From the sequence record MZ956763.1: a stretch of 64,000 bases of DNA. One strand, 5' to 3'. How positions within the stretch are numbered: the stretch's first letter is position 1; every line of letters starts with the position of its first letter. Below the pieces are notes generated by a model. The model ran no database searches. It saw only the letters and a program-made list of their open reading frames with translations, and was not told where the DNA came from. Made by a program: the position numbers and the translations under genes. Of this stretch, positions 9,030 to 34,421 are shown piece by piece. Source of the DNA: a phage.

Positions 9030-9045
9030 TAAGTAATTTCTTAAA

Positions 9046-9070
9046 AGGCTGCTTCGGCGGCCTTTTTTAT
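9046..9070 (+). terminator. intrinsic terminator
   Basis: GGCTGCTTCGGCGGCC hairpin + TTTTTTAT. Confidence 0.65.
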
Positions 9071-9098
9071 TTGTATTTTGTGCAGAGTGCTGTATAAT
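9071..9098 (+). promoter_or_regulatory. sigma70-like promoter TTGTAT-16-TATAAT
   Basis: perfect -10 TATAAT at 9093-9098, upstream of 9130 gene. Confidence 0.5.
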
Positions 9099-9129
9099 TG
9101 TTGACACGATAAACTAAACAGGAGAACCA

Positions 9130-12380: not shown

Positions 12381-13166
12381 ATGGGTATTGTAAAAATTAT
12401 TAACGGTGATATCTTTTCAGCATTTGATAAAGGTAAGTTTGACATCATCGGTCAGGGTTGCAACTGTATGAATTTAATGGGTGCAGGTATCGCTGACAAG
12501 ATTTCTAAACTTTACCCAAAAGCATATGAGACCGATACAGAAGTTTATCTATATGCAGGTGGCATTCGTCACAAACCCTGTGAAAATTTACTGGGTAATT
12601 TCTCTGTAGCACGTTTAAAACAAGGTCGTATAGCTAACCTTTACACCCAACTTCATACTGGTAAAGATGCCCGATACAGTGCTTTAGAGTCATCTTTGAA
12701 GCAACTTAACAGATACTGTGAAGTCAATCAGTTGAAGAAAGTTGGTCTGCCTATGATTGGTGCAGGTATCGGTGGACTTGACCCTCAAGCTGTCACAGTT
12801 ATCATTAATCAGGTGATGAAGGGTGTAGATGTATATCTGTATGTCTACGAGACAGAGATGTACAACGAGTTACACTCAGGTTGGAAGAACTACTGTGAAC
12901 CAGAATACTTTGCAGGTGTAGCAGTGTTCACAGATAACGCAGTTACCCTCTTCAGACGAAGAAAAGGTAAGATACATCAAAGTAACCCTCCGGTTGAAAA
13001 GATGTCTCTAAGTAACGCTCTAGTTACCCACCTGTCGAAGAGCAATCACAGGATTGCAGTAACATTTGGCAGTGATGCAGATGCTTACATCTATGCAAGA
13101 ACTGATGAGGATATCGAGACGATTTTCTCTTCACCAGAAGTTACCTTCTTAGACGCAAAGAACTAA
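12381..13166 (+). CDS. Macro-domain (ADP-ribose binding/processing) protein
   Basis: N-terminus IINGDIFSAFDKGKFDIIGQGCNCMNLMGAGIADKI matches macrodomain GDIT...DAIVNAAN..GGG pattern; second Gly-rich loop GLPMIGAGIGGLDP. Confidence 0.65.
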   Translation: MGIVKIINGDIFSAFDKGKFDIIGQGCNCMNLMGAGIADKISKLYPKAYETDTEVYLYAGGIRHKPCENLLGNFSVARLKQGRIANLYTQLHTGKDARYSALESSLKQLNRYCEVNQLKKVGLPMIGAGIGGLDPQAVTVIINQVMKGVDVYLYVYETEMYNELHSGWKNYCEPEYFAGVAVFTDNAVTLFRRRKGKIHQSNPPVEKMSLSNALVTHLSKSNHRIAVTFGSDADAYIYARTDEDIETIFSSPEVTFLDAKN

Positions 13167-13240
13167 GAAACTCTGTAAAATATTCACAATAGACTAAGCC
13201 TTTCTTATCTGGTAAATTTTTCAGGTAAGGAGGGCTTTTT

Positions 13241-13419
13241 TATTTCAGAATTGTGCAGGTAGAGTTCTGTAGAGAAATCTGTAGAGAAAATTTTGAACTC
13301 CAAAGGGAAAATTCATTTTCAAGTTGTGCAGGTAATCTCCAAAGAGCTTTTTCATTTTCAAAACGTGCAGAGAAAAATCAGGTCGGGCAAGAAAAATCAT
13401 TTTAGAATTGTGCAGGTAG
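13241..13419. repeat. four direct repeats of ~22 nt (cATTTTCArNTTGTGCAGGTA) in non-coding region
   Basis: copies at ~13241, 13311, 13351, 13393; plus tandem 12-mer TCTGTAGAGAAA x2 at 13266-13290. Confidence 0.7.
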
Positions 13420-13594
13420 GTGGGTGTAGGTGGGGATGTCGCCATTTCTCACAAGGCTACCACATCCGAAAAGAAAAGTCAACAGAAAAATTTGTAGCGG
13501 ATTGAAAAATAATTCTTGATTTGTGTTCTGTTTTGTGGTATTCGCGCGCACCCGTTTCATTACATTTTTGCCAAAAATATTTTTAAAATTTTTC

Positions 13595-13623
13595 TTGACT
13601 ATTCGAACGGGGTTATCTAGTAT
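13595..13623 (+). promoter_or_regulatory. sigma70-like promoter TTGACT-17-TAGTAT with downstream leader hairpin
   Basis: consensus-like hexamers; followed by CAACGGGGCGACAAGCCC hairpin and TAGGAG RBS. Confidence 0.5.
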
Positions 13624-13675: not shown

Positions 13676-13882
13676 ATGCTATACGGTCGTGAATTGATGG
13701 TTACAACTAACGTTAACACAAATGTAAAACGTTTTTACATGCAAATTTGTGGCGTATGGTCTAGAATATCAGAGGCTGACTATTGCAACTATGTAGAAAC
13801 GGCAATCAACTCTGATTGCTACCTTACAAGGAATACAAGAAAGCACATAAGACAGACAGCAGTTTACTACTACGATATCTAA
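13676..13882 (+). CDS. hypothetical protein (early)
   Basis: ORF 68 aa behind conserved RBS cassette. Confidence 0.4.
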   Translation: MLYGRELMVTTNVNTNVKRFYMQICGVWSRISEADYCNYVETAINSDCYLTRNTRKHIRQTAVYYYDI

Positions 13883-13884
13883 TA

Positions 13885-13970
13885 AAGTACTTTACAAGGG
13901 GCTTAAAAGTTGATATCTTAAGCCCCAGATAAAGAGCTTTATCAACAACCTTAAACTAGGAGATTCAAAA
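13885..13970 (+). repeat. reiterated intergenic module (hairpin GGGGCTTA..TAAGCCCC + CCTTAAACTAGGAGATTCAAAAATG)
   Basis: near-identical copies at 14352, 14700, 15767, 16562. Confidence 0.8.
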
Positions 13971-14351
13971 ATGGCATATCGTGCACCTAAATTCATCAAT
14001 AAAGACAATTTCCGCAATGCACTGGAAAAATCACTTGATGAGAATTTTACAGGTCGGGTTATTGTTGTACACGCATTCAATTTTAAGTATGATATTAACG
14101 GGAATAAAATCAACCATTACACGGCAACCATGTTAGATGGTGCGCTTTCAAGTGAAAAAGCCGTACTGAATGCACTTGCTGGACGTGGTAAAAACCTGAT
14201 AAAATGCAATAAGAGACGTTATCAGGGCGGCGCATATGGTTACGATGATGCTGTTTATCATCTTGAGAATATGGGCTATTCAGTGGAAAAAGCTGGAGCG
14301 CCGCAAATCATTGGTAGCGATGGTTATGTAACAATTTTCAAAATTAAATAA
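13971..14351 (+). CDS. hypothetical protein (early)
   Basis: ORF 126 aa. Confidence 0.5.
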   Translation: MAYRAPKFINKDNFRNALEKSLDENFTGRVIVVHAFNFKYDINGNKINHYTATMLDGALSSEKAVLNALAGRGKNLIKCNKRRYQGGAYGYDDAVYHLENMGYSVEKAGAPQIIGSDGYVTIFKIK

Positions 14352-14441
14352 TAAAGTACTTTACAGGGGGCTTATAGTTCGATAAAGTAAGCCCCAGATA
14401 AAGAGCTTTACCACTAAATCCTAAATTGGAGAATCTGAAAA
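14352..14441 (+). repeat. reiterated intergenic module (hairpin + RBS)
   Basis: GGGGGCTTATAGTTCGATAAAGTAAGCCCC hairpin, then conserved AGATAAAGAGCTTTACCACTAAATCCTAAA..GGAG. Confidence 0.8.
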
Positions 14442-14699
14442 ATGGCTATTATCAAAAACGTTGTAGTTCCTGCAAAAACTCGTGATGACGCTCGCGTTAT
14501 GGCTAAAAAGTTATGTGGGAGAGTGGTTGACAACGGGAAACAATCTGCTGTAAGATGGGGTGTAAAGGTTGATAAACATTTAACCTTAAAACGTAGTTCA
14601 AACAACCTTTTTAAAGGTGTAAAATCACTCGGTAAAGTGAACGTTTTTACCAAAAAAGGTTATAAAATGCACTTATCATTAACTGGCAATTTAATCTGA
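14442..14699 (+). CDS. hypothetical protein (early)
   Basis: ORF 85 aa. Confidence 0.45.
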   Translation: MAIIKNVVVPAKTRDDARVMAKKLCGRVVDNGKQSAVRWGVKVDKHLTLKRSSNNLFKGVKSLGKVNVFTKKGYKMHLSLTGNLI

Positions 14700-14787
14700 T
14701 AAAGTACTTTACAAGGGGCTTAAAAGTTGATATCTTAAGCCCCAGATAAAGAGCTTTACCACTAAATCCTAAACTGGAGATTCAAAA
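14700..14787 (+). repeat. reiterated intergenic module (hairpin + RBS)
   Basis: same module as 13885. Confidence 0.8.
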
Positions 14788-15084
14788 ATGAAATTATCAA
14801 ATAAAGTTAGGGAAAACCTTAGCAAATTACTCAATAAAATTGATTTTATCGAGACATCAAGAAATAGTCATGATGTTATGGAATGGTTACACGGCAAAAT
14901 AAAAGGCCGTCGTGTGGTGATTTGCTTATGGAATAGTTGCAGGGAGTATAAAAAACCTGTATTACAAGTTAATATATACGATAATACTTTTAAAAGCCCT
15001 GTAAAGTCTAAAAGCGATTTATTAGAATCTTATGAGATATCTGTAAATGGTAAAGTATCACGTAAAGAGGTAACACCATGCTAA
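14788..15084 (+). CDS. hypothetical protein (early)
   Basis: ORF 98 aa. Confidence 0.45.
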   Translation: MKLSNKVRENLSKLLNKIDFIETSRNSHDVMEWLHGKIKGRRVVICLWNSCREYKKPVLQVNIYDNTFKSPVKSKSDLLESYEISVNGKVSRKEVTPC

Positions 15085-15410
15085 TGACTGGCATCACCGC
15101 AATCATAGCCATTATAGCACTTTATAAGGCATATAAAGCCTATAATCTGGCAAGTAAGGCAATCACGCAGCAGGTTAGCAATAGCCTTGTAGAGAGCTTT
15201 CTAGGGCGCCTCAGTGATGAGCAAATAAAGCGGCTAGAGATGAGCTTCAGATATAAAGCGAAAACCTATCAGATAAGTGACATCTTCAAAGATGATTTTC
15301 AGCTTGTCGATGATTATAATGCTCTGATAAATGCTTTAAATATCAGTGACTTAAAAGACTACTACGCTGTAATTGTTCAAGAACTGAGCAAACGAAAACA
15401 AAATGCTTGA
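15078..15410 (+). CDS. hypothetical membrane protein (early)
   Basis: ORF 110 aa, N-terminal hydrophobic helix. Confidence 0.45.
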   Translation: MLMTGITAIIAIIALYKAYKAYNLASKAITQQVSNSLVESFLGRLSDEQIKRLEMSFRYKAKTYQISDIFKDDFQLVDDYNALINALNISDLKDYYAVIVQELSKRKQNA

Positions 15411-15434
15411 CACTGGTTTTTAGATAGATTAAAT
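15406..15434 (+). promoter_or_regulatory. sigma70-like promoter TTGACA-17-TAAATT
   Basis: followed by conserved leader CATCAACGGGGGGCGATAACCCC hairpin and RBS. Confidence 0.55.
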
Positions 15435-15494
15435 TACACATCAACGGGGGGCGATAACCCCACTACATAAAGCCCTTAAACTAGGAGATTCAAA

Positions 15495-15767
15495 ATGTAT
15501 ACTACTAACAACGGTCGCACCTTAAACGTAACCCTACGCCACTATGTAAACGGGGTGATGCACTTCGAGGATTTACGGGCTGAACAGCATATTTTGGATT
15601 GGCAACTTGCAGGACTCCAAAAAACTGCTACAGGATACGGGAAAAAGATTTCAACTAGTTGGAAAGTATACTACGAGGGACGTTTGCGCAGAATTTATCA
15701 AGATGTGTACAGTAATAGCGCATCAAGTTACATCATGGTAAAAGGTAAAAAACTGCATTTAGTATAA
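15495..15767 (+). CDS. hypothetical protein (early)
   Basis: ORF 90 aa. Confidence 0.45.
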   Translation: MYTTNNGRTLNVTLRHYVNGVMHFEDLRAEQHILDWQLAGLQKTATGYGKKISTSWKVYYEGRLRRIYQDVYSNSASSYIMVKGKKLHLV

Positions 15768-15852
15768 AGTACTTTACAAGGGGCTTATAGTTCGATAAAG
15801 TAAACCCCAGATAAAGAGCTTTACCACTAAATCCTAAATTGGAGATTCAAAA
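15767..15852 (+). repeat. reiterated intergenic module (hairpin + RBS)
   Basis: same module as 14352. Confidence 0.8.
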
Positions 15853-16257
15853 ATGGCTATTAATAACCGTGAATTATCAATCTTAAAAGCACGTTTGACC
15901 GTCAACCGGATTAATGTTATTACATCATCAGCCCCAGACGAAACACTGCAAAACATTATTGGGAAGATTCAAAGTGTTATCTTAGACGTTGAAAGCGTAA
16001 AAAACTCACTGGCTGACGTTGCAGCAGGTATCACGCTAGACGGTGCACAATATGAAATGACCGACATGTTAGGCAAATCTAAGGTAATTAATAGGGAGTT
16101 AGATTTGAAAATGTTTCGTTTTGCTGTTAAAGTGTGGCTATCTGTCGAGTATGACGCAAATTTTGCAATCGCTGACTTTTTTGCAACATGGTTGCAACGT
16201 AATTTAACAAATCACGATTTTCGTGATATCTGCGATGTAATTTACGCAGAACTATAA
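15853..16257 (+). CDS. hypothetical protein (early)
   Basis: ORF 134 aa. Confidence 0.5.
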   Translation: MAINNRELSILKARLTVNRINVITSSAPDETLQNIIGKIQSVILDVESVKNSLADVAAGITLDGAQYEMTDMLGKSKVINRELDLKMFRFAVKVWLSVEYDANFAIADFFATWLQRNLTNHDFRDICDVIYAEL

Positions 16258-16265
16258 AATTTCTC

Positions 16266-16294
16266 TTGATTTTGTTTTTTAAAGCAAGTAAATT
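16266..16294 (+). promoter_or_regulatory. sigma70-like promoter TTGATT-17-TAAATT
   Basis: followed by conserved leader ACTAATCAACGGGAGG... hairpin. Confidence 0.55.
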
Positions 16295-16357
16295 ACTAAT
16301 CAACGGGAGGTCATCACCTACCCACTACATAAAACCCTTAAACTAGGAGATTCTAAA

Positions 16358-16561
16358 ATGGCTATTATTAACGGTTTAAACATTGAGACTACTCACATCA
16401 AAGATATCAAAGTCGGTGATATAGTCCTTTTTCACGGCGTAGAAAAAACCGTCACGGCGAAAGATATCAAGGAGGATTCATTCATGGGCCGAACCCTCTT
16501 CGGTGATTCCTATTGCTTAGGTTACCTTGCAGTTTTAAAAGTTGTCAAAAATAATCGTTAA
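16358..16561 (+). CDS. hypothetical protein (early)
   Basis: ORF 67 aa. Confidence 0.4.
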   Translation: MAIINGLNIETTHIKDIKVGDIVLFHGVEKTVTAKDIKEDSFMGRTLFGDSYCLGYLAVLKVVKNNR

Positions 16562-16648
16562 AGTACTTTACAAGGGGCTTATAGTTCGATAAAGTAAGCC
16601 CCAGATAAAGAGCTTTACCACTCAATCCTTAAACTAGGAGATTCAAAA
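16562..16648 (+). repeat. reiterated intergenic module (hairpin + RBS)
   Basis: same module as 14352. Confidence 0.8.
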
Positions 16649-17191
16649 ATGAAATGCTTTCACGGTACTACTCAAGAAAACTTCATCAACCTGATTAATA
16701 ACGGTGATAAGCCATCAGGTGCATGGAATTGTTCGGATATGGACGGCAATTTTTACGTGTATCCAGAGAATAAAATCTATGGCGACGATGAGGAAGAGAT
16801 AACATCTGAAGGCATCCAGCAAGCGTTAGGCAATGCCACTATCACGGCAGCTTTCCAGATGAAAACCCAAAATATTGTTATCTTAGAACTTGATATCCCA
16901 GAGGATGACCTGAATGATGATTATTCTTGCGATAATATGTCTGGCGTAGCAAGTTTTACAGAATACTTCGATTTGAATTGGATTAAAAAGGTTTACGTAA
17001 CTGAGTTTAATGCGATGTTTTCGCCTTTTTGTCTTCCTTCATTGGATAACCCAAATTTAAACTATCTTGACGAGTCTCTGGAACTTCTTGCTAAAAGTGT
17101 TCAACAGTCGGACAGTATTCAGGTTTTTTGTGACATCATGGATACACTAACGGGAAACATCGCAGAAGAGGATTTAAAGAGCTTTTTTTAA
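16649..17191 (+). CDS. hypothetical protein with PARP/ART-like HG[ST]..N..I..G N-terminal motif
   Basis: MKCFHGTTQENFINLINNG resembles H-Y-E class ADP-ribosyltransferase motif (cf. PARP LLWHGSRTTNFAGILSQG); tentative. Confidence 0.4.
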   Translation: MKCFHGTTQENFINLINNGDKPSGAWNCSDMDGNFYVYPENKIYGDDEEEITSEGIQQALGNATITAAFQMKTQNIVILELDIPEDDLNDDYSCDNMSGVASFTEYFDLNWIKKVYVTEFNAMFSPFCLPSLDNPNLNYLDESLELLAKSVQQSDSIQVFCDIMDTLTGNIAEEDLKSFF

Positions 17192-17232
17192 AAACCTATG
17201 CAATCACCTTATAAACACTAATCAGCCCCTTA

Positions 17233-17253
17233 CAGGGGCTTTTAAGGGGCTTA
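17233..17253 (+). terminator. intrinsic terminator
   Basis: AGCCCCT-TAC-AGGGGCT + TTTT. Confidence 0.6.
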
Positions 17254-17257
17254 AATC

Positions 17258-17491
17258 ATGCTTATAACCGTTTATCTTATCCTTTCTATTTGTAATGGCC
17301 ATTCATGTGATTTTAAAGGGCTTGAGGAGTTCACAGGAAGTAAAGAAAATGCTGTTCAGGTCTGTCAGATAGCAAGGCAAGACTACCCCGCCAGTGATGA
17401 CATACAATGTTATTTTAAGACAGAAGATGAAGATGGTATCTATTTCGATAGTGTAGACGGTCAATATGAAATAATTATAGAAAAAGACTAG
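17258..17491 (+). CDS. hypothetical small protein with N-terminal hydrophobic segment
   Basis: ORF 77 aa. Confidence 0.4.
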   Translation: MLITVYLILSICNGHSCDFKGLEEFTGSKENAVQVCQIARQDYPASDDIQCYFKTEDEDGIYFDSVDGQYEIIIEKD

Positions 17492-17517
17492 ACAAGCCTG
17501 ATAAAAATCTGTAAATT
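17489..17517 (+). promoter_or_regulatory. promoter TAGACA-17-TAAATT with conserved leader hairpin GGGAGGGATGACCTCCC
   Basis: same cassette as 18050, 18646, 18975. Confidence 0.5.
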
Positions 17518-17579
17518 GTCAATCAACGGGAGGGATGACCTCCCAACTAAACAAAGTCCTTAAACTAGGAGATTCAAAA

Positions 17580-17921
17580 ATGGCTTATGTAACCGTAATT
17601 ACCAATAAAGAAGATTCATCTTGGTCAACTCAAGTAAGTGACAAGATGTCACCTATGCAGTGCCTAAAATACTTTGAGCAATGGAACAAAGGTGAGGAAA
17701 CAAGCCCCTTTCAAGTAATGCAGATTATTCATACAGACAACGAAGGGAATAAAACTGTTTTGAATAGTGAGTACTATGCAACCAGATTAGAAACGAGAAG
17801 TAAAGCAATGAAGCTCTTACGTGAATCCGGTTATTCTCATATTGCCGCGCTAATCTGGGATGACCTCCTAAAAAGTCAGCGTATCAGCTATGTAAAACCT
17901 GAAAAAATATTCATCAGTTAA
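17580..17921 (+). CDS. hypothetical protein (early)
   Basis: start placed at ATG after conserved RBS (MAYVTVITNK...); ORF-track N-terminal extension is translated leader. Confidence 0.45.
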   Translation: MAYVTVITNKEDSSWSTQVSDKMSPMQCLKYFEQWNKGEETSPFQVMQIIHTDNEGNKTVLNSEYYATRLETRSKAMKLLRESGYSHIAALIWDDLLKSQRISYVKPEKIFIS

Positions 17922-18049
17922 TCAATAACTTACAAAAAACTTTTAAAAAAATGTTGACAATCCCTCTTGACATTGGTAACTTTGTTCGAGGGGGCTTATC
18001 TAAAAGGGATTCACTTAAAAGATTCTTTATAGATAAGCTCAAAAATTGC

Positions 18050-18078
18050 TTGCAATCAGCTATCAAAACAAGTAAATT
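18050..18078 (+). promoter_or_regulatory. promoter TTGCAA-17-TAAATT with conserved leader hairpin
   Basis: leader CAACGGGAGGGATAACCTCCCC, then TAAACTAGGAGATTCAAAAATG. Confidence 0.55.
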
Positions 18079-18140
18079 ACTAATCAACGGGAGGGATAAC
18101 CTCCCCACTAAGTAAAGTCCTTAAACTAGGAGATTCAAAA

Positions 18141-18671
18141 ATGAACAAGTTCAAAGCTATCAACTTCATTCGTTCAAATAGTGTTATGTCTAAGCCTGTT
18201 AAAGACACCTATGAATTTCGTTGTAATGGTGTACACTTTGCAACCATCACTAAATCAGAAAACGGGGCTTATTACATTCATCGTCGTAATGTTGCAACCG
18301 TTGTAGTCTCTCACTTTATGCAAGCCGTTGCGGAACTCCTCCCGATGTTTTTAGGGCTTTACTTAGATGAGTGTAAAAACGTTCACAATCACGTTAAAAA
18401 CCTTTTAAACAGTTATAAAATGGCTTATGAACGTTCTATCAAGTCCTTAAACAAGTTCTATAAAGCCCCTGTAAATACTGTTTCAATGGCCTACGCTGCA
18501 AATGGTGAAAGAGTAAGCCTATCCGATGTGGAAGATATCGAGCTTTACGACCATCGTCCTAACGGTTACTCTCAGACCCTCGGTGAAGGTTTATCATTCA
18601 ATATCAAGAACTTAGAAAAAACTTTAAAAGATATTGAAAAAGATATTGACGAGACAATCAAAAATCTGTAA
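18141..18671 (+). CDS. hypothetical protein (early)
   Basis: ORF 176 aa. Confidence 0.5.
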   Translation: MNKFKAINFIRSNSVMSKPVKDTYEFRCNGVHFATITKSENGAYYIHRRNVATVVVSHFMQAVAELLPMFLGLYLDECKNVHNHVKNLLNSYKMAYERSIKSLNKFYKAPVNTVSMAYAANGERVSLSDVEDIELYDHRPNGYSQTLGEGLSFNIKNLEKTLKDIEKDIDETIKNL

Positions 18672-18674
18672 ATT
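18646..18674 (+). promoter_or_regulatory. promoter TTGACG-17-TAAATT with conserved leader hairpin
   Basis: overlaps 3' end of previous gene; leader GGGAGGGATGACCTCCC. Confidence 0.55.
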
Positions 18675-18736
18675 ACTAATCAACGGGAGGGATGACCTCC
18701 CTACTAAATAAAGTCCTTAAACTAGGAGTTATCAAG

Positions 18737-19000
18737 ATGGAAAACGTAGAATTAACCACACTTTTACAAATTGCAACCGACAAAGAAAACGTAGCATTAA
18801 TTCACCGCATCGAAAGTGATTTGTTCAATGGTGAAATCATCAAAGAGTCTTACGAAGTTGTCGGATTCAAAGATGGTAAAACGTTTGGATTCTTTGACCT
18901 CGAAAAAGGCAACGCTATTACAAAATATGATGTTNTATCTTGTGAGATTCTTACAAAATACAACGAAAAAAGGCTTGCAACATACGCNAACATGCAGTAA
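18737..19000 (+). CDS. hypothetical protein (early; contains ambiguous bases)
   Basis: start at ATG after GGAG (MENVELTT..); two N in sequence. Confidence 0.4.
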   Translation: MENVELTTLLQIATDKENVALIHRIESDLFNGEIIKESYEVVGFKDGKTFGFFDLEKGNAITKYDVXSCEILTKYNEKRLATYXNMQ

Positions 19001-19003
19001 ATT
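18975..19003 (+). promoter_or_regulatory. promoter TTGCAA-17-TAAATT with conserved leader hairpin
   Basis: -10 overlaps stop codon of previous gene. Confidence 0.5.
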
Positions 19004-19065
19004 ACTAATCAACGGGAGGGATGACCTCCNTACTAAATAAAACCNTTAAACTAGGAGATTCAAAA

Positions 19066-19314
19066 ATGGCAACTATCCGCGCAACCGTTAACNAATTNNG
19101 CTTCTACTCTCTGGATGTTAAATTTGACCTTGTGGGCACTGATAACGCCTTTGAAATGGTGAAAGGTCTTATCAGTCAGACCATCAAAGACTATAATCCT
19201 TCTGATGAGTTCTGGAAAGAAACAAAACAGGAAGTTCTTAAAGATGGTTATTCTTTTCACTATTGGGGTGAAAAAATTGTCTCTCTGTACTACGATAAAG
19301 AAGGCACTAACTAA
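19066..19314 (+). CDS. hypothetical protein (early; contains ambiguous bases)
   Basis: start at ATG after conserved RBS (MATIRATV..). Confidence 0.4.
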   Translation: MATIRATVNXXXFYSLDVKFDLVGTDNAFEMVKGLISQTIKDYNPSDEFWKETKQEVLKDGYSFHYWGEKIVSLYYDKEGTN

Positions 19315-19379: not shown

Positions 19380-21010
19380 GTCTTATACAATCCTTATACA
19401 AACCCTTTCCCTTTCCTTCCTAGAATCTTACTAGACCTTAAAAGCAATAACTCTATAGTCTACTCTATAGCCTTTTATCAAATCAACTTAAATATAAGCC
19501 CATAACCCGAAAGGGAAGGGCAACCATTTAAACGCTCTATAAAGCCCTATAACAACCTTATTAACCCAACTTAAGGGATTGCATTATCTCACCCTTAAAA
19601 GCCCTTTATAAAGCTTCCTAGAGCCTTAAAAGAATCTTATAAGGGTGTAAGCTTTATTATCTCGTTAGCTATCTTGTGAATAACTAAAAAGGGCTATGAG
19701 ATAGATTCTATCGAATCCTATTGTTAGTGTCTTAAAAGTATGTTATAGGGGCTATGAAGTAGCTTAAAAGTTGCTTAAAAGTTACGTAAAAGAGGTTATA
19801 AAGTTACGTAAATGCTAGCCCCCTTAACATTTTCTTAACAATTTCTTAACAATCCCTACATAGTTATGCTTTTAAGGCACTTGTTAGCAACTTGTTAGCC
19901 CCTTGTTAAATCTCTGTTAAGACCACGTAAAAGCCTTGTAAGAGTCTTTGACATAGCCTTAAAAGCTCCTGTAAAGCCCTATAAAGAGCTATCCATACAG
20001 TTGAGGGGTAGATACTAGGAAGAGACTTAAAAGGGCTTATAAGGGGCTATAGAGAGCTTTTAAGAGATATGTTTAGAGATTCACTAAGAGGAAAGGGAAT
20101 GATAAGAAAAGAGATAGTGACCATGTTAATAGCTTGTTAAAAAGATTAAACACTTGTTAGGAACTTGTTAATTATCTTTACAAAATAACCCTTAAAAATT
20201 AACTTGTTAGCTCTTGTTAGTCATCTGTTAAGATTCTGTAAAGCCTATTCAGTACTTGTTAGAAAACTGTTACAACCTTGTTAGTTCTGTTAAGAATATG
20301 TTAAGACCTCTGAAGAGATGTTAAAGAGATGTAGCAACTGTTAAGAGATTGTTAATGATATTTTAAAATTTTGCAAAGGGGGTGTTAAGGGGCTGTTAAG
20401 GGCTACCAAGCAGATATACATCCTAATCAGATATTTTTGAGTTCCTTCAAAGACCCTAAAAAATGACTTGATAGTCCTATTTTATAAAAATTTTAAAATT
20501 CTGAATAATTACCTATACAGTCTTCTAAAAATACAGGCATAAACAGGCTTATAAGATACCTTGTTAGTACCGTGTTAGACCTTGTGAGATAAGGTCTGTA
20601 AAGATATTCCTGTTAAGTTTGCTAAAACAGTCTATATAGAGGCTTAGTAATACCTAGTGAACATCTATAGAGGGTATCATAGGTAACCTAGAGATTAAGA
20701 GGTGTATAGGAGCTTCTAAGAGGGTATAGAGAGGTGGTTAAGGTGATTGTATAGGTTGTTAAGAAGGCTTGTTAGGAGAGTGTTTAGAAGGCTTGTTAGA
20801 GGGCTAGTTAGAAGGGTTATACAGAGGGGCTATTAAGACCACTAGATAGTTACTAAGATACTATATAGTACTATATAACTATATAGAGAGTAAGATTAAG
20901 AAGGTTGTTAAGAAGGATAGATATTTTATTCACATATGATGGTGACCCAGAGGTTGGGACAACCGATAAAATTTTATAAAAATTAAAAAGCCCCCAATTA
21001 AGGAGGCTCT
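19380..21010. repeat. 1.6 kb ORF-free region densely packed with short reiterated motifs (YTGTTAR, CTTAAAAG, CTTATAAG, TATAG)
   Basis: no ORF >60 aa; about 30 copies of CTTGTTAG/CTGTTAAG-like words, many CTTAAAAG/TATAAAG words; lies between convergent gene blocks. Confidence 0.8.
20985..21009 (-). terminator. probable intrinsic terminator for leftward block
   Basis: minus-strand hairpin (AGCCTCC/GGGGGCT) followed by T-run. Confidence 0.45.
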
Positions 21011-30759: not shown

Positions 30760-30836
30760 CTCTGTTTAGCTCAGCTTGGTAGAGCGTTCCGTTTGGGGCG
30801 GTAAGGCCGGAGGTTCAAGTCCTCCAACAGAGACCA
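30760..30836 (+). tRNA. tRNA-Pro (anticodon TGG)
   Basis: acceptor CTCTGTT/AACAGAG, T-arm GGAGG-TTCAAGT-CCTCC, anticodon loop TTTGGGG, CCA encoded. Confidence 0.8.
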
Positions 30837-30843
30837 AATTAAT

Positions 30844-30921
30844 GTTCCAGTAGACAAAATGGTAAAGTCACCACTCTTTCAAAGTGGATATCTGAGGGTT
30901 CAAATCCCTTCTGGAACGCCA
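30844..30921 (+). tRNA. tRNA-Glu (anticodon TTC)
   Basis: acceptor GTTCCAG/CTGGAAC, anticodon arm CCACT-CTTTCAA-AGTGG, T-loop TTCAAAT. Confidence 0.8.
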
Positions 30922-30926
30922 GTTTT

Positions 30927-31003
30927 GACAGAAGACCAATTACAGCAAACTTAATCTTATTCATCTGAAGGTAAATCGGACAAAGAAGAGATTTGGTCTG
31001 GTC
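30927..31003 (+). ncRNA. structured element A (conserved ACAGAAGACC...GGTCTGG terminal stem)
   Basis: 5' GACAGAAGACCAATTACAGCAA, 3' ATTTGGTCTGGTC; family members at 31095, 31576, 31663. Confidence 0.45.
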
Positions 31004-31013
31004 ATTAAGAATT

Positions 31014-31089
31014 GCGGGTATAGAGAAAGGGCGTCTCACATGTCTCATTAGCATGGTATCGGCAGGTTCGACTCCTGCACCCGCCTCCA
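31014..31089 (+). tRNA. tRNA-Met (anticodon CAT)
   Basis: D-stem GAGA/TCTC, anticodon arm CATGT-CTCATTA-GCATG, T-arm GCAGG-TTCGACT-CCTGC; acceptor pairing imperfect by eye. Confidence 0.65.
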
Positions 31090-31094
31090 AATTT

Positions 31095-31160
31095 ACAGAA
31101 GACCGTTTACAGCAATATTTATTAAATTTTTAGCGGAAAAATTGAAAGATACGGTCTGGT
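31095..31160 (+). ncRNA. structured element B (ACAGAAGACCG...CGGTCTGG stem)
   Basis: same terminal stem motif and TTACAGCAA box as element A. Confidence 0.45.
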
Positions 31161-31172
31161 AATACTAAACAT

Positions 31173-31249
31173 GGTTAGGAAGCACATAAGGTATGTGCGG
31201 TCGCCTGTTAAGCGAATGGCACAGGGTTCGAATCCCTGACTAACCGCCA
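31173..31249 (+). tRNA. tRNA-Asn (anticodon GTT)
   Basis: acceptor GGTTAGG/ACTAACC, D-stem GCAC/GTGC, loop CTGTTAA, T-arm CAGGG-TTCGAAT-CCCTG. Confidence 0.8.
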
Positions 31250-31318
31250 AATTTAGGAGAGAAGCGATTGCTCACCGATTTGTAAGGTGCAAGTCCTTAG
31301 CCTGAATAGAAATTAAAT

Positions 31319-31405
31319 GTGTCGTTATCCCGTAGATGGTAGCGGTGGGGACTGTAAATCCCTTGTCATTGAGACTCGGTAGGTTCGACTCCTACACGGC
31401 ACACC
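31319..31405 (+). tRNA. tRNA-Tyr (anticodon GTA), class II
   Basis: acceptor GTGTCGT/ACGGCAC, anticodon arm GGGGA-CTGTAAA-TCCCT, long variable arm, T-loop TTCGACT. Confidence 0.75.
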
Positions 31406-31411
31406 AATAAA

Positions 31412-31489
31412 GGCTATGTAGTTTAATAGGGTTAAAATACTCCCCTGTCACGGGAGATGATGTGAGTTCAAGTCTCATCGTAGCCGCCA
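31412..31489 (+). tRNA. tRNA-Asp (anticodon GTC)
   Basis: acceptor GGCTATG/CGTAGCC, anticodon arm CTCCC-CTGTCAC-GGGAG, T-loop TTCAAGT. Confidence 0.8.
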
Positions 31490-31575
31490 AATTATAATAA
31501 GTATTTCAAAATGATGTTTTGAGAGGGCTATTTAGCCCCTCCCTTAAAGAGTTCTTACGAGTATTCTTTAAAGGA

Positions 31576-31651
31576 GCAGAAGACCAAATACAGCAAGTTA
31601 CTTAAAATTTCAAGCCAATTTAATTTTGAAAAATTTAAAACTTGGTCTGGC
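31576..31651 (+). ncRNA. structured element C (GCAGAAGACCAAATACAGCAA...TTGGTCTGG)
   Basis: same terminal stem motif family. Confidence 0.45.
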
Positions 31652-31662
31652 TCAACAAATTT

Positions 31663-31794
31663 ACAGAAGACCGTTTACAGCAAAACTTAAACAATCTATT
31701 TCTCGGTAAAGAAAAGGAGAAGGTTCGATTCCTTCACTCGGCAGATGTCGAGTTGGTGTAATGGTAGCACTTAAGATGGTAAACAACGGTCTGG
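31663..31794 (+). ncRNA. structured element D with internal permuted tRNA-like domain (candidate YrlA-like Y RNA)
   Basis: terminal stem ACAGAAGACCGTTT/AAACAACGGTCTGG; internal order T-arm (GAAGG-TTCGATT-CCTTC), acceptor 3' strand ACTCGGC, loop AGAT, acceptor 5' strand GTCGAGT, D-arm GTGTAATGGTAGCAC. Confidence 0.5.
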
Positions 31795-31938
31795 TAATTA
31801 TCTTTGTAGATAAGTTATTAAGCTTACCTGTGAGTATGCGACCACAAAGGGTGAAAGGGTAAATTCTAGATTTAAACCCAAAAAGGCACATCGCTACAGA
31901 CCTTAAGCAAGTCTGGGTAGCTTATCTACAAAGATAAT
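31795..31938 (+). repeat. 19-bp perfect inverted repeat flanking a 106-nt segment
   Basis: AATTATCTTTGTAGATAAG at 31795-31813 and exact reverse complement CTTATCTACAAAGATAATT at 31920-31938. Confidence 0.85.
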
Positions 31939-31943
31939 TTAAT

Positions 31944-32019
31944 GGAAGTGTAGCAGAATGGTGATGCGGCAGACTTTTAATCTGACAGGCGATGGGTTCG
32001 AATCCCTCCACTTCTACCA
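31944..32019 (+). tRNA. tRNA-Lys (anticodon TTT)
   Basis: acceptor GGAAGTG/CACTTCT, anticodon arm GCAGA-CTTTTAA-TCTGA, T-loop TTCGAAT; T-stem weak by eye. Confidence 0.65.
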
Positions 32020-32023
32020 AAAT

Positions 32024-32100
32024 GGTTCAGTCGCAGATAAGGTAATGCAAGGGTTTCATAAGCCCTATGAATGTGGGTTCGATTCCCATCTGAACCTCCA
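32024..32100 (+). tRNA. tRNA with CAT anticodon (Met, fMet or Ile-lysidine)
   Basis: acceptor GGTTCAG/CTGAACC, anticodon arm AGGGT-TTCATAA-GCCCT, T-arm GTGGG-TTCGATT-CCCAT. Confidence 0.7.
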
Positions 32101-32102
32101 AT

Positions 32103-32177
32103 TGTGGGTTAGCATAAATGGTAATGCAAACGGCTGATAACCGTTAGAAGAGGGTTCGATACCCTCACCTACAACCA
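32103..32177 (+). tRNA. tRNA-Ile (anticodon GAT)
   Basis: acceptor TGTGGGT/ACCTACA, D-stem GCAT/ATGC, anticodon arm AACGG-CTGATAA-CCGTT, T-loop TTCGATA. Confidence 0.8.
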
Positions 32178-32192
32178 ATTTCAATAGAGTTG

Positions 32193-32221
32193 TTGACATT
32201 GAGATGTGACTACTTTATAGT
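32193..32221 (+). promoter_or_regulatory. sigma70-like promoter TTGACA-17-TATAGT inside tRNA cluster
   Basis: consensus -35, good -10; followed by ~290 nt without tRNA. Confidence 0.55.
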
Positions 32222-32514
32222 AACTAAAATACTTCACAATATGTATAATTCAAACACCAATACATGAGCGTTAGACGTAACACAATGTGGGGAAATTTGT
32301 TGTACATATTCTGAATAGTTTTCGTTGCGTAGCGTCTATTTTGCAAATTTAAAATAAATGCAAACGACAATGTTTTTCTGGCAGTAGCTTGATAGGCTAA
32401 ACACCAGTGAGGTCTTCCAATCCCTCATCAAAGAATTTGGCGTACTCGCCCACGGTATGATTAATAAGGTGGGCATCTTTAAGGGCTTTCTAAGAGAGTC
32501 TTTAAAGATAATTA

Positions 32515-32596
32515 CGGGGCGTATCTCAGCGGTCTTCTAAACCGCCGTTAACCGAGTAAGTGGAGTATGCGGGTTCGAGTCCTGCCGCCTCGACCA
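32515..32596 (+). tRNA. atypical tRNA-like gene, possible tRNA-Arg (anticodon TCT)
   Basis: acceptor CGGGGCG/CGCCTCG + A + CCA, T-arm GCGGG-TTCGAGT-CCTGC, arm GCGGT-CTTCTAA-ACCGC; no canonical D-arm found by eye, 23-nt segment before T-arm. Confidence 0.45.
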
Positions 32597-32738
32597 ATTT
32601 AGTTAGCAGATTACTTAGACGACCTAAGCGGGTCTTCCTGTAGGGAGGTGGTCTGTATCTCATGTTTTCCAGAACATGTAAATAATCTGAGAAGGGGCTT
32701 TACAGTGTTGAGATAATACGGTAAGCTTCGAATTATAG

Positions 32739-32822
32739 TGTGGGACGATGTTAAGACTCTAAGGCATGAGCAACGGCCTCCAAAACCGTTTCAAAGGGGT
32801 TCAACTCCTCCGTCCCATGCCA
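32739..32822 (+). tRNA. atypical tRNA, possible tRNA-Trp (anticodon CCA)
   Basis: acceptor GTGGGAC/GTCCCAT + G + CCA, anticodon arm ACGGC-CTCCAAA-ACCGT, T-loop TTCAACT; D-region ~8 nt longer than canonical. Confidence 0.5.
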
Positions 32823-32835
32823 AAGTCTTATTAGG

Positions 32836-32923
32836 GGTAGGTAGCGGCTAATGGCAGCCAAACAGTCTTGAAAACTGTTGCCACTGTAGAGATACGGTGA
32901 GGGTTCGACTCCTTTACTTACCG
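32836..32923 (+). tRNA. tRNA-Ser (anticodon TGA), class II
   Basis: acceptor GGTAGGT/ACTTACC, anticodon arm ACAGT-CTTGAAA-ACTGT, 20-nt variable arm, T-arm GAGGG-TTCGACT-CCTTT. Confidence 0.7.
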
Positions 32924-33180
32924 CCTAATAAGATTTAAAGCCAAGCTTCATTCGGATGTCGCTTTGGTATCCCGCGTGTATTGTCGTACACACTGATAAA
33001 ACACCTAGTAGGTGTCACGGAGAAGAGATAATATCAAGCTCTCCAAAGGTTCTAGTCACCGGATTAAACAAGACTATGCAAAGACCTTTTTAGGTCTTTT
33101 TAGAGGGCTTCTAAGGTTATTACAGCTTGTTGTGGAACCTTGTTGCTTAGGTTCTTAGAAGTTCTCTAAAAAGATTTAAT

Positions 33181-33258
33181 GGGAGATTGACGGTAATTGG
33201 TAAACCTACCATCCTTAGAAGTTGGTGTTTGAGGGTTCGAATCCCTTGTCTCCTACCA
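33181..33258 (+). tRNA. tRNA with TAG anticodon (Leu by anticodon) but short variable arm
   Basis: acceptor GGGAGAT/GTCTCCT + A + CCA, anticodon arm CCATC-CTTAGAA-GTTGG, T-arm GAGGG-TTCGAAT-CCCTT, variable ~5 nt. Confidence 0.55.
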
Positions 33259-33265
33259 AATTAAT

Positions 33266-33341
33266 GCAGGTGTAGCAAAATGGTTATGCGGCTGACTCTT
33301 AATCAGTAAGACGATGGGTTCAATTCCCTCCACCTGTACCA
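33266..33341 (+). tRNA. tRNA-Lys (anticodon CTT)
   Basis: paralog of 31944 tRNA; acceptor GCAGGTG/CACCTGT, anticodon arm GCTGA-CTCTTAA-TCAGT. Confidence 0.65.
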
Positions 33342-33347
33342 GACATT

Positions 33348-33423
33348 GGGGTCATAGTTTATATGGTTAAAATTCGAGTTTTGCAAACTTGGGAACTGAG
33401 TTCAATTCTCAGTGACTCCACCA
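33348..33423 (+). tRNA. tRNA-Ala (anticodon TGC)
   Basis: acceptor GGGGTCA/TGACTCC, anticodon arm CGAGT-TTTGCAA-ACTTG, T-arm CTGAG-TTCAATT-CTCAG. Confidence 0.8.
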
Positions 33424-33429
33424 ATTAGT

Positions 33430-33504
33430 GCATCCATAGTTTAAACGGGAAAATTACAGTCTTCCAAACTGAGGTTGAGGGTTCGATTCCCTCTGGATGC
33501 TCCA
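33430..33504 (+). tRNA. tRNA-Gly (anticodon TCC)
   Basis: acceptor GCATCCA/TGGATGC, anticodon loop CTTCCAA, T-arm GAGGG-TTCGATT-CCCTC. Confidence 0.8.
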
Positions 33505-33511
33505 AATTAAT

Positions 33512-33587: not shown

Positions 33588-33590
33588 ATT

Positions 33591-33677: not shown

Positions 33678-33681
33678 TTCA

Positions 33682-33757: not shown

Positions 33758-33758
33758 T

Positions 33759-34413: not shown

Positions 34414-34421
34414 AGATTTAA

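What the first reader, a model, noticed from the sequence alone, without database searches (positions are those of the whole stretch)
13241..13419. Four spaced direct repeats plus tandem 12-mers in the non-coding stretch opening the early region
The motif (C)ATTTTCA(A/G)N(T/C)(T/G)TGCAG(G/A)(T/G)A recurs four times at ~40-70 bp spacing, with TCTGTAGAGAAA x2 between and a GTAGGTGGG(G/T) duplication after. Spaced direct repeats upstream of promoters are typical of regulator operator arrays or iteron-like binding sites.
Basis: seen in the sequence. Interest (0 to 1): 0.45.

Follow-up and report, generated by a model that had tools for sequence, protein, structure and literature searches.

The report
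Conserved repeat array heading early genes
The four spaced repeats are real and are kept, in the same place, in every examined relative of Salmonella phage Felix O1, which marks them as a functional non-coding DNA element, most likely a row of docking sites for a DNA-binding protein that has not been identified.

Summary
The window is a Felix O1-like phage (Felixounavirus, subfamily Ounavirinae). The repeat unit is longer than described, about 38 bp: a G-rich left half, an A5 or T5 tract, and the core TCATTTTCAAnnTGTGCA(GGTA).

The array fills the gap between the terminator of a macro-domain/phosphatase gene and the strong sigma-70 promoter of a block of small early genes. It lies about 7 kb (about 8%) from the right physical end of the genome.

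The same array of 3-4 copies occurs in all four Ounavirinae genera. Cores are 83-94% identical between this phage and Erwinia phage phiEa104. The adjacent gene in that pair is only 35% identical in protein, and its third codon positions are saturated.

The array is not coding. It shows no conserved RNA fold, matches no Rfam family, and contains no promoter conserved across genera. It occurs nowhere else in the window and in no other viral lineage.

Best reading: a cis-acting array of binding sites for a sequence-specific, probably phage-encoded protein acting on the early-gene boundary. A replication-origin (iteron) role is the main rival, weakened by the lack of an outstanding AT-rich melting region and of a Rep gene. 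The two short tandem duplications are lineage-specific. The binding partner and function are unproven.

The parts
12381..13166 (+). Upstream gene: 261-aa macro-domain / 'phosphatase' protein. It is the last gene of the conserved block and the left anchor of the array in all four genera.
   Evidence: Pfam Macro 1.4e-07 and PHROG 335 'phosphatase'. Syntenic in FelixO1, SUSP1, Maleficent, ESh22 and phiEa104.
13196..13241 (+). Intrinsic terminator (17-pair stem plus T-run) ending the upstream operon. Its 3' arm and T-run form the left half of repeat copy 1.
   Evidence: Terminator scan. It is the only helix kept in the alignment fold.
13223..13261 (+). Repeat copy R1 (AGGTAAGGAGGGC-TTTTT-TATTTCAGAATTGTGCA-GGTA).
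   Evidence: 40.5 bits.
13266..13289 (+). Exact tandem TCTGTAGAGAAA x2 in the R1-R2 spacer. It is lineage-specific (Felixounavirus only) and is not part of the conserved element.
   Evidence: Absent or altered in SUSP1, Maleficent and phiEa104.
13296..13334 (+). Repeat copy R2 (AACTCCAAAGGG-AAAAT-TCATTTTCAAGTTGTGCA-GGTA). Contains the palindrome GAAAATTCATTTTC.
   Evidence: 34.4 bits.
13335..13372 (+). Repeat copy R3 (AATCTCCAAAGAGC-TTTTT-CATTTTCAAAACGTGCA-GAG).
   Evidence: 39.2 bits.
13380..13418 (+). Repeat copy R4 (AGGTCGGGCAAG-AAAAA-TCATTTTAGAATTGTGCA-GGTA). Its left half is recognisably orthologous to copy 3 of phiEa104.
   Evidence: 35.6 bits.
13415..13470 (+). Variable tract right of the array. 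Here it is G-rich and includes GTAGGTGGGT x1.9. In most relatives it is replaced by a C-rich tract that forms a canonical G-quadruplex motif on the - strand.
13454..13483 (-). Possible leftward promoter (TTGACT-17-TAGCCT with TGn) pointing into the array. An equivalent is strong in phiEa104 but fails the -7 T rule in FelixO1, SUSP1 and Mooglevirus. Status uncertain.
13595..13623 (+). Strong sigma-70-type early promoter P2 (TTGACT-17-TAGTAT) preceded by an A/T-rich UP-like stretch. It is the only promoter conserved in all genera.
13676..13882 (+). First small early gene (68 aa, PHROG 5293, unknown function). It opens about 6 kb of small genes separated by repeated promoter/stem-loop/RBS cassettes.

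Best explanation
The four repeats are cis-acting DNA sites, not a gene or a structured RNA. Each unit of about 38 bp carries two invariant blocks, TCATTT and GTGCA, about one helical turn apart. That layout suits a protein that touches two successive major grooves.

The proposed mechanism is that a sequence-specific DNA-binding protein, most probably phage-encoded, occupies the four like-oriented sites. The resulting nucleoprotein complex sits exactly at the seam between the terminator of the conserved upstream operon and the strong host-type promoter that launches the immediate-early gene block.

Its most likely job is to control or insulate that early promoter region, either by shutting off or boosting early transcription or by blocking read-through.

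Shown here: the sites exist, are under strong purifying selection across the whole subfamily, and are non-coding. Also shown: they have no conserved RNA fold, are not a shared promoter, and are unique in the genome.

Inferred: that a protein binds them, that the protein is phage-encoded, and that the output is transcriptional.
For: - The array is statistically real: 4 matches against 0.08 expected, and 34-40 bits against 12 for the next best site.
- It is present with the same order and orientation in Felixounavirus, Suspvirus, Mooglevirus and Kolesnikvirus.
- In Erwinia phages the array is the only part of the 509-bp spacer that BLAST still aligns (query 146-248).
- The 18-nt cores are 83-94% identical between the window and phiEa104. 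The adjacent gene in that pair is 35.5% identical in protein and 35% identical at third codon positions.
- Position-specific features are kept, such as R3 ...CGTGCAGA and the R4 left half GGTCKGGCAAG. Even so, all phiEa104 copies read GTGCATAG where all others read GTGCAG(G/A). This is a change in the same direction in every copy, as expected if the sites co-evolve with one reader.
- Natural 3-copy variants exist, so the sites behave as redundant modules.
- The array is not coding. Spacings of 73/75/77, 39/41/37 and 45/39 break the reading frames, and the same repeat is read in different frames.
- There is no conserved RNA fold. Fold z-scores are -1.35 and +0.50. Consensus folds are -13.3 and -7.5 kcal/mol, and the covariation term does not favour them. 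Rfam gives nothing above noise.
- The array sits between a terminator and the conserved promoter P2.
- A phage XRE-type HTH regulator exists at 62309-62638, and R2 and R4 carry the palindrome GAAAAT-n-CATTTTC.
Against: - No binding protein is identified.
- The ten neighbouring proteins scanned show no DNA-binding domain.
- The only recognisable phage HTH regulator has no tblastn hit in the Erwinia phages that also carry the array.
- The sites lie 145-380 bp upstream of the promoters, not over them. Simple repression by occlusion is therefore unlikely.
- Spacing varies by 2-8 bp between genera, so strict face-of-helix cooperativity is not conserved.
- No transcription or binding data for any Felix O1-like phage were found in the searchable literature.
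Confidence: 0.45

Rival explanations
1. Replication origin. The four repeats are iterons bound by a phage initiator or helicase loader. The neighbouring strong promoters, and the G-rich/C-rich tract, provide transcriptional activation or an R-loop primer. This would resemble lambda ori, T4 oriE, or the non-coding repeat-rich origins of lactococcal phages.
For: - Four like-oriented asymmetric sites of about 20 bp lie in a non-coding gap and are unique in the genome.
- They are conserved across the subfamily, and copy number tolerates 3-4.
- Strong promoters are adjacent.
- A G-quadruplex-capable tract next to the array is kept in most genera.
- The phiEa104 copies match the DnaA box TTWTNCACA with one mismatch each.
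- From general knowledge, the phage replisome is T7-like (primase-helicase plus a family-A polymerase), a type that can start from transcripts.
Against: - There is no outstanding duplex-unwinding region next to the array. The least stable 60-bp stretch of the spacer ranks 1664th of 63,940 positions, whereas the least stable DNA in the window lies at 20.4-20.9 kb beside the terminal repeat.
- No Rep-like gene is adjacent.
- Spacing of 37-77 bp is irregular, not the roughly 22 bp typical of iterons.
- The Felix-type cores differ from a DnaA box at 3 positions.
- GC skew shows no change at 13.3 kb.
- No similar array exists in any bacterial or plasmid genome scanned.
Confidence: 0.22
2. Host-factor trap or injection checkpoint. 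The array binds a host protein (DnaA or another nucleoid or membrane-associated factor) and acts during DNA entry or genome organisation. This would be loosely analogous to the conserved non-coding repeat region (iss) at 7.9% of phage T5, which Davison proposed stops injection through DnaA boxes.
For: - The array lies about 7.0 kb from the right physical end. The terminal repeat of Pr103Blw and UAB_69 maps to window 19818-20407 (PMC8303462, PMC4837284). That is about 8% of an 87-88 kb genome.
- The intervening 6 kb is a block of small early genes.
- The phiEa104 copies are one-mismatch DnaA boxes.
- The T5 iss is likewise a conserved non-coding repeat region with DnaA boxes (bioRxiv 10.1101/866236).
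Against: - In this window and three of the four genera the cores are poor DnaA boxes, with 3 mismatches.
- No IHF or Fis consensus is conserved.
- The array is not inside the terminal repeat, unlike in T5.
- It is unknown which end enters first, and no two-step injection is known for Felix O1.
- The change of GGTA to TAG in all Erwinia-phage copies fits a co-evolving phage protein better than a conserved host protein.
Confidence: 0.08
3. RNA-level element. The array is transcribed, either leftward from a promoter right of it or by read-through from the left. It then works as a repeated RNA module, such as a protein or sRNA sponge, an antisense RNA or a replication primer.
For: - A leftward promoter-like site points into the array in this window (TTGACT-17-TAGCCT with TGn) and in phiEa104 (TTGACC-18-TATACT, 10 of 12).
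- The tract between that site and the array is strongly strand-asymmetric, G-rich or C-rich.
Against: - The leftward promoter fails basic -10 rules in FelixO1, SUSP1, Maleficent and ESh22.
- Folding is no better than shuffled sequence and no covariation supports a structure on either strand.
- Rfam gives no hit.
- The upstream terminator should stop rightward read-through.
Confidence: 0.08
4. No direct molecular function. The array is a decayed tandem duplication of the terminator-proximal sequence. It is kept only because it sits at a mosaic boundary where homologous recombination swaps early-gene cassettes. Alternatively, it encodes a small repetitive protein.
For: - Copy 1 shares its left half with the terminator, and phiEa104 has head-to-tail 37-39 bp units.
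- Genes downstream of the array are not recognisably conserved between phiEa104 and this phage, while the upstream genes are. The array therefore marks a mosaic junction.
- Open frames of 58-130 codons cross the array, and some records annotate them as genes.
Against: - Neutral sequence would be unalignable at this divergence, since third codon positions are 35% identical. The cores are 83-94% identical while the spacers between them have diverged.
- Frames are not preserved between genera, and there is no ATG with a ribosome-binding site.
- In the HFQxVQ reading frame, variation falls on first and second codon positions.
Confidence: 0.07

Closest known systems
Iterons of plasmid and phage replication origins (lambda ori O-protein sites, F ori2/RepE, P1 oriR, T4 oriE)
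   Same: There are three to five like-oriented, asymmetric sites of about 20 bp. They lie in a non-coding stretch, are unique in the genome, and are conserved while the spacers drift. Each site has two conserved blocks about a helical turn apart. The reverse complement of the core (CCTGCACAAATTG) shares the octamer ACAAATTG with my recollection of the RepE iteron TGTGACAAATTGCCC. That resemblance is from memory and was not tested.
   Different: Spacing is 37-77 bp and irregular instead of about 22 bp. There is no exceptional AT-rich unwinding element and no adjacent initiator gene. No DnaA boxes are found in three of the four genera.
Multi-site operator or architectural arrays that switch phage early transcription (phi29 p4 sites between promoters A2c/A2b/A3; asymmetric P1 C1 operators)
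   Same: Several sites for one protein are placed at the head of the early transcription unit of a virulent phage. A/T-tract-rich units suggest bending. Two of the four units contain a short palindrome.
   Different: The sites do not overlap the -35/-10 elements of any conserved promoter. They sit 145-380 bp upstream. The cognate protein is unknown. P1 operators are dispersed around the genome, whereas this motif occurs in one place only.
Phage T5 injection-stop (iss) repeat region
   Same: Both are highly conserved non-coding repeat regions. Each borders a block of poorly conserved small early genes and lies about 8% of the genome from a physical end. The Erwinia-phage version of the array carries DnaA-box-like copies.
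   Different: The T5 region is more than 1 kb long, lies inside a 10-kb terminal repeat, is full of inverted repeats and palindromes, and has paired DnaA boxes. Here there are about 180 bp of simple direct repeats outside a terminal repeat of about 590 bp, and the cores are poor DnaA boxes. Two-step injection is not known for Felix O1.
T4-type PeSL cassettes (promoter-early stem-loop repeats between early genes)
   Same: Both are repeated non-coding modules in a hyperplastic early region. The window has such promoter/stem-loop/RBS cassettes at 8 or more intergenic sites from 13.9 to 19.1 kb.
   Different: Those cassettes are dispersed, one per gene, and contain a recognisable promoter. The four-copy array is clustered, lacks a promoter, has an unrelated sequence, and lies upstream of the whole block.

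Membership tests
Iteron-type replication origin | Three or more like-oriented direct repeats of about 17-22 bp in non-coding DNA | tested here: met
   Four copies, conserved core of about 18-24 bp, all in the same orientation.
Iteron-type replication origin | Regular spacing close to whole helical turns (typically about 22 bp) | tested here: not met
   Spacing is 73/39/45 here, 75/41/45 and 77/39/45 in other genera, and 37/37/39 in phiEa104.
Iteron-type replication origin | Adjacent AT-rich DNA-unwinding element | tested here: not met
   The least stable 60-bp stretch of the spacer ranks 1664th of 63,940. The window minimum is at 20.4-20.9 kb.
Iteron-type replication origin | Cognate initiator (Rep) gene nearby or in the genome | tested here: inconclusive
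   No Rep or DNA-binding domain was found in the 17 proteins scanned that lie near the array or in the early block; the three other proteins scanned are distant ones next to the regulator at 61-63 kb. The rest of the genome was not scanned. The Bas63 annotation lists none.
Iteron-type replication origin | Origin activity (autonomous or phage-dependent replication, initiation mapped there) | not testable with these tools
   Needs marker-frequency analysis or a plasmid assay.
Transcriptional operator array | Repeated sites at or overlapping a promoter they control | tested here: inconclusive
   The array is 145-380 bp upstream of the promoter-like sites at 13516 and 13595. No site overlaps a -35 or -10 element.
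Transcriptional operator array | Cognate sequence-specific regulator encoded by the phage or host | tested here: inconclusive
   An XRE-HTH protein is encoded at 62309-62638. It is found in three genera but not detected in Erwinia phages that have the array. No link to the array is shown.
Transcriptional operator array | Binding demonstrated and expression changed when the sites are mutated | not testable with these tools
   Needs EMSA or footprinting and reporter or phage mutants.
DnaA-box cluster (oriC, datA, T5 iss type) | Multiple matches to TTWTNCACA with at most 1 mismatch | tested here: not met
   None lies within the array of this window or in FelixO1, SUSP1, Maleficent or ESh22. Their cores (ACCTGCACA) have 3 mismatches. 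The feature is met only in phiEa104 (CTATGCACA x3, TTATGCACG).
T5-type injection stop signal | Conserved non-coding repeat region about 8% from the genome end that enters first, with two-step DNA transfer | tested here: inconclusive
   The position matches numerically, about 7.0 kb from the right end. The entering end and two-step transfer are unknown. The array is not inside the terminal repeat.
Known structured RNA (Rfam) or conserved RNA fold | Covariance-model match, or a fold supported by covariation | tested here: not met
   Only two sub-threshold chance hits. Fold z-scores are -1.35 and +0.50. The alignment folds are weak, and the covariation term does not favour them.
Sigma-70 promoter cluster | -35 and -10 hexamers at 16-18 bp within each unit, conserved among relatives | tested here: not met
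   Two leftward matches occur in phiEa104 only. No hexamer pair is conserved in the array across genera.
Protein-coding gene | Reading frame, start codon and codon-position pattern preserved among relatives | tested here: not met
   Inter-copy distances differ by non-multiples of 3 between genera. The same repeat is read in different frames within one open frame.

The most novel reading that the evidence does not exclude
The array, together with the G-quadruplex-capable tract beside it, is a previously unrecognised subfamily-wide control point of Felix O1-like phages with no counterpart among the operator or iteron classes. One example would be a checkpoint that holds or organises the incoming genome about 8% from its right end, a T5-like staged entry or membrane/DnaA anchoring, until products of the terminal early-gene block release it. 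The recurrent assembly breaks right beside it would then reflect a real discontinuity or unusual structure in virion DNA rather than a sequencing artefact.
Probability: 0.07. Interest if true: 0.8.

Novelty: new member of a known kind. Interest (0 to 1): 0.42.

Why it matters
Felix O1 is a classic Salmonella typing phage. Its relatives are widely used in biocontrol, therapy cocktails and reporter-phage diagnostics. [quoted passage not shown]

This array is the most strongly conserved non-coding element found at the head of the early-gene block. It is present in all four genera of the subfamily and appears undescribed in the searchable literature.

It gives a concrete target of about 180 bp for experiments:
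- pull-down of the binding protein;
- deletion or scrambling by recombineering;
- plasmid interference tests.

It also marks a spot that genome engineers should avoid or exploit when inserting payloads next to the early promoters.

Tried and rejected
1. Physical genome end or packaging site. I suspected this because several records end just right of the array. It is rejected because the experimentally or PhageTerm-defined terminal repeat maps 6.4 kb further right, at window 19818-20407.
2. Leftward sigma-70 promoters formed by adjacent units. This reading works for two units of phiEa104 but is not conserved in other genera.
3. Rightward promoters, sigma-54, sigma-E and sigma-32 readings were checked by eye. 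Spacings or invariant doublets do not fit.
4. Known RNA families, single-sequence folds and alignment folds on both strands gave nothing beyond the terminator hairpin.
5. Small ORFs across the array: frames are not conserved.
6. IHF, Fis and DnaA consensus scans found no site conserved across genera. DnaA-like boxes occur only in phiEa104.
7. Similar arrays elsewhere. A two-copy pattern scan of IMG/VR returned only Ounavirinae plus unrelated coding repeats. A scan of 185,579 species genomes returned only unrelated taxa and none from Enterobacterales; those hits were judged by taxon only and their sequences were not inspected.
8. Neighbouring early proteins as the binding partner: no Pfam domain, and PHROGs of unknown function.
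9. AT-rich unwinding element next to the array: not outstanding.
10. GC skew: no signal.
11. Literature searches for Felixounavirus transcription start sites, direct repeats or origins found no description of this element. One search was too loose to be informative.
12. Resemblances to MuA end sites, Tus/Ter, CRP and ArgR boxes were considered from memory and dropped as weak AT-rich similarity.

Full report
**What the window is.** A 2-kb query around the finding matches 249 phage records at 90-95% identity, almost all Felix O1-like myoviruses of Escherichia, Salmonella, Shigella and Citrobacter. The 509-bp spacer alone matches 293 records, including 28 Erwinia phages. The window is therefore a Felixounavirus genome (subfamily Ounavirinae).

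**Checking the observation.**
- A repeat search finds four copies of a 28-34 nt unit starting at 13231/13304/13343/13388, with spacing 73, 39 and 45 bp.
- The degenerate core ATTTYMRANNYGTGCAG occurs at 13242, 13315, 13354 and 13399 and nowhere else on either strand of the 64-kb window. Chance expectation is 0.08, and no shuffle of 100 reaches four matches.
- A weight matrix built from 47 distinct copies in relatives scores the four sites at 34-40 bits. The best other site in the window scores 12 bits.
- Tandem Repeats Finder confirms TCTGTAGAGAAA x2 at 13266-13289 and GTAGGTGGGT x1.9 at 13416-13434.

The unit is longer than reported, about 38 bp. It consists of a G-rich left half (ACTCCAAAGRG or GGTCGGGCAAG), an A5 or T5 tract, the core TCATTTTCAAnnTGTGCA, and GGTA.

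**Context.** The array fills the left part of a 509-bp non-coding gap, whose parts are, from left to right:
- the stop codon of a 261-aa macro-domain/'phosphatase' gene at 13166;
- a 17-pair intrinsic terminator at 13196-13237, whose 3' arm and T-run form the left half of copy 1;
- the four copies;
- a variable G-rich tract;
- A/T-rich DNA;
- a strong sigma-70-type promoter, TTGACT-17-TAGTAT, at 13595-13623;
- the first of a series of small genes of unknown function.

Those small genes are separated by repeated promoter/stem-loop/RBS cassettes at eight or more places up to 19.1 kb.

**The array is not at the physical end.** Several GenBank records and metagenomic contigs stop just right of the array, so I first asked whether this is a genome end. 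It is not.
- Phage Pr103Blw has an annotated 581-bp direct terminal repeat from PhageTerm (PMC8303462).
- Phage UAB_Phi87 has a 608-bp repeat defined by Bal31 digestion and sequencing run-off (PMC4837284).
- The Pr103Blw repeat maps to window 19818-20407.
- Records that annotate a 'DTR' or 'repeat_region' (UAB_69, dune, fjerdesal, nataliec) match the same place.

The array therefore lies about 6.4 kb left of the terminal repeat. That is about 7.0 kb, or roughly 8% of the genome, from the right end, with the small early genes in between.

**Conservation.** I retrieved the region from Felix O1, phiSUSP1 (Suspvirus), Maleficent and ESh22 (Mooglevirus), phiEa104 (Kolesnikvirus), and about 35 IMG/VR contigs.
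- Every one has the array in the same place and orientation.
- Spacing is 73/39/45 in Felixounavirus, 75/41/45 or 77/39/45 in Suspvirus and Mooglevirus, and 37/37/39 in the Erwinia phages.
- Three loci carry a 3-copy variant, pSJ21 among them.
- In the Erwinia phages the array is the only part of the spacer that BLAST still aligns (query 146-248).
- The 18-nt cores are 83-94% identical between this window and phiEa104. The adjacent macro-domain gene in that pair is 35.5% identical in protein, 49% in DNA and 35% at third codon positions, which means saturated.

This is strong purifying selection on the cores. The spacers between cores, the 12-mer duplication and the GTAGGTGGG duplication are not conserved outside their own lineages.

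Position-specific features persist, for example R3 ending CGTGCAGA and the R4 left half GGTCKGGCAAG matching phiEa104 copy 3. Yet every phiEa104 copy reads GTGCATAG where every copy elsewhere reads GTGCAG(G/A). A parallel change in all copies suggests one reader co-evolving with its sites, or gene conversion.

**What it is not.**
- *Coding.* Open frames cross the array on both strands, and some records annotate them. Inter-copy distances differ by non-multiples of three between genera, and the same repeat is read in different frames within one open frame. No ATG with a ribosome-binding site is present.
- *Structured RNA.* Rfam gives only two sub-threshold chance hits. The array folds no better than shuffles on either strand, with z-scores of -1.35 and +0.50. 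Alignment folds are weak at -13.3 and -7.5 kcal/mol, and the covariation term does not favour them. The only conserved helix is the terminator.
- *Promoters.* In phiEa104 two adjacent-unit junctions look like leftward TTGCCA-17-TAAAAT promoters. No hexamer pair is conserved within the array across genera, and only P2 is conserved.
- *A dispersed regulatory motif.* It occurs only here in the 64 kb window.
- *A widespread element.* A two-copy pattern scan of IMG/VR returned only Ounavirinae plus unrelated coding repeats. The same scan of 185,579 species genomes returned only unrelated taxa and no Enterobacterales; I did not inspect those sequences individually.

**Mechanism.** What remains is a set of DNA sites read as DNA. 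Each core has two invariant blocks, TCATTT and GTGCA, about one helical turn apart, and all four point the same way. This is the anatomy of binding sites for a sequence-specific protein.

Because of where the array sits, I think the most likely role is control or insulation of the immediate-early promoter region (confidence 0.45). It starts at a terminator and precedes the one promoter conserved in all genera.

A phage XRE-type HTH protein is encoded at 62309-62638 (PF01381), and R2 and R4 contain the palindrome GAAAAT-n-CATTTTC. However, that protein has no detectable homologue in the Erwinia phages. It is a candidate, not a conclusion.

**Rivals.**
- *Iteron-type origin (0.22).* This is the main alternative. 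Four asymmetric direct repeats next to strong promoters fit. Against it are the irregular spacing, the absence of an outstanding easily melted stretch (best 60-bp stretch ranks 1664th of 63,940; the minimum is at 20.4-20.9 kb), no Rep-like neighbour and no skew signal.
- *Host-factor or DNA-entry role (0.08).* This would be modelled on the T5 injection-stop region (bioRxiv 10.1101/866236). It is suggested by the roughly 8% position and by one-mismatch DnaA boxes in phiEa104. The Felix-type cores, however, have three mismatches.
- *RNA-level role (0.08).* This needs a leftward promoter that is convincing only in this window's subclade and in phiEa104.
- *Neutral persistence at a mosaic junction, or coding (0.07).* This is contradicted by the conservation contrast.

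**Comparison with known systems and novelty.** The array works most like an operator or iteron array, but it fails or leaves open several defining features of each (see the membership table).

I found no description of it in the Felix O1 genome paper, which lists other direct repeats and states that temporal regulation is unknown (PMC3185647). I found none in the wV8 paper either, nor through four further literature searches.

I rate it a new member of a known kind: a conserved protein-binding-type repeat array, subfamily-wide and without an assigned partner. Interest is moderate (0.42). It is not surprising in kind, but it is a clean, testable handle on the unexplored early regulation or replication of a much-used phage group.

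Noticed in passing
window 13415-13470; L007 1460-1510, L008 1420-1455, L010 1655-1690: Immediately right of the array most Ounavirinae have a C-rich + strand tract (Felix O1: CCCCTCTCCCCCTCTTACTCCCCCTCCCCCC). On the - strand this is a canonical G-quadruplex motif in Felix O1, SUSP1, Maleficent, ESh22 and pSJ21, and near-canonical in phiEa104. This window's subclade has swapped it for a G-rich + strand tract. The whole 64-kb window contains no canonical G4 motif. The tract also resembles, from memory, the C-rich lambda tR1 rutA sequence, so it could be a Rho loading site.
   Followed up: partly
L001, L003, L004, L021, L059, L145, L148 (ends of records or contigs): At least seven independent assemblies (TH10, LMP34, EC106 and four IMG/VR contigs of 52-89 kb) terminate inside that same C-rich tract. 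One of them (L059) runs straight into a Nextera adapter sequence (CTGTCTCTTATACACATC...). This is probably a coverage drop-out at a G4/C-rich sequence. A real discontinuity in virion DNA was not excluded.
   Followed up: partly
window 19818-20407: This is the homologue of the 581-608 bp direct terminal repeat of Pr103Blw, UAB_Phi87 and UAB_69, and so marks the physical genome ends. It is packed with CTTGTTAG / CTGTTAAGA short repeats. The least stable duplex of the whole window lies just beside it at 20.4-20.9 kb.
   Followed up: partly
window 13860-19070: The early-gene block carries repeated intergenic cassettes at 8 or more sites. One type is ATAAAGTACTTTACAAGGGGCTTA... (promoter-like plus stem-loop). 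Another is ...ATCAACGGGAGGGATGACCTCCC...CCTTAAACTAGGAGATTCAAAAATG (stem-loop plus a near-identical ribosome-binding site). They recall the PeSL cassettes of T4-type phages and the 57-bp repeats noted in the Felix O1 paper.
   Followed up: partly
window 18935, 18988, 19030, 19045, 19093, 19098-19099: Seven ambiguous bases (N) lie in the early-gene region, giving X residues in three predicted proteins.
   Followed up: no
window 9045-9100: A lone weak look-alike of the repeat (CCTTTTTTATTTGTATTTTGTGCAGAG, 12 bits) follows another terminator. It lies in the spacer of a promoter-like site with a perfect TATAAT. It is probably chance plus the terminator T-run.
   Followed up: partly
window 62309-62638 (- strand): This encodes an XRE/Cro-type helix-turn-helix protein (PF01381, 6e-10) inside the nucleotide-metabolism operon. 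It is conserved in Felixounavirus, Suspvirus and Mooglevirus but gave no tblastn hit in Erwinia Kolesnikvirus phages.
   Followed up: partly
L010 1500-1640 (phiEa104): In the Erwinia phage the four copies read CTATGCACA (x3) and TTATGCACG on the - strand. These are DnaA boxes (TTWTNCACA) with one mismatch each. SUSP1 and ESh22 carry one exact R5M-type box, TCATTCACA, between the array and the early promoter; Maleficent has CTATTCACA at the same spot.
   Followed up: partly
GU169904.1 (hit H100): The record named Staphylococcus phage SA1 (147 kb) contains Felix O1-like sequence matching this window at 89% over 800 bp. This suggests a chimeric or contaminated record.
   Followed up: no
window 30760-35773: A cluster of 24 tRNA genes lies on the + strand.
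   Followed up: no
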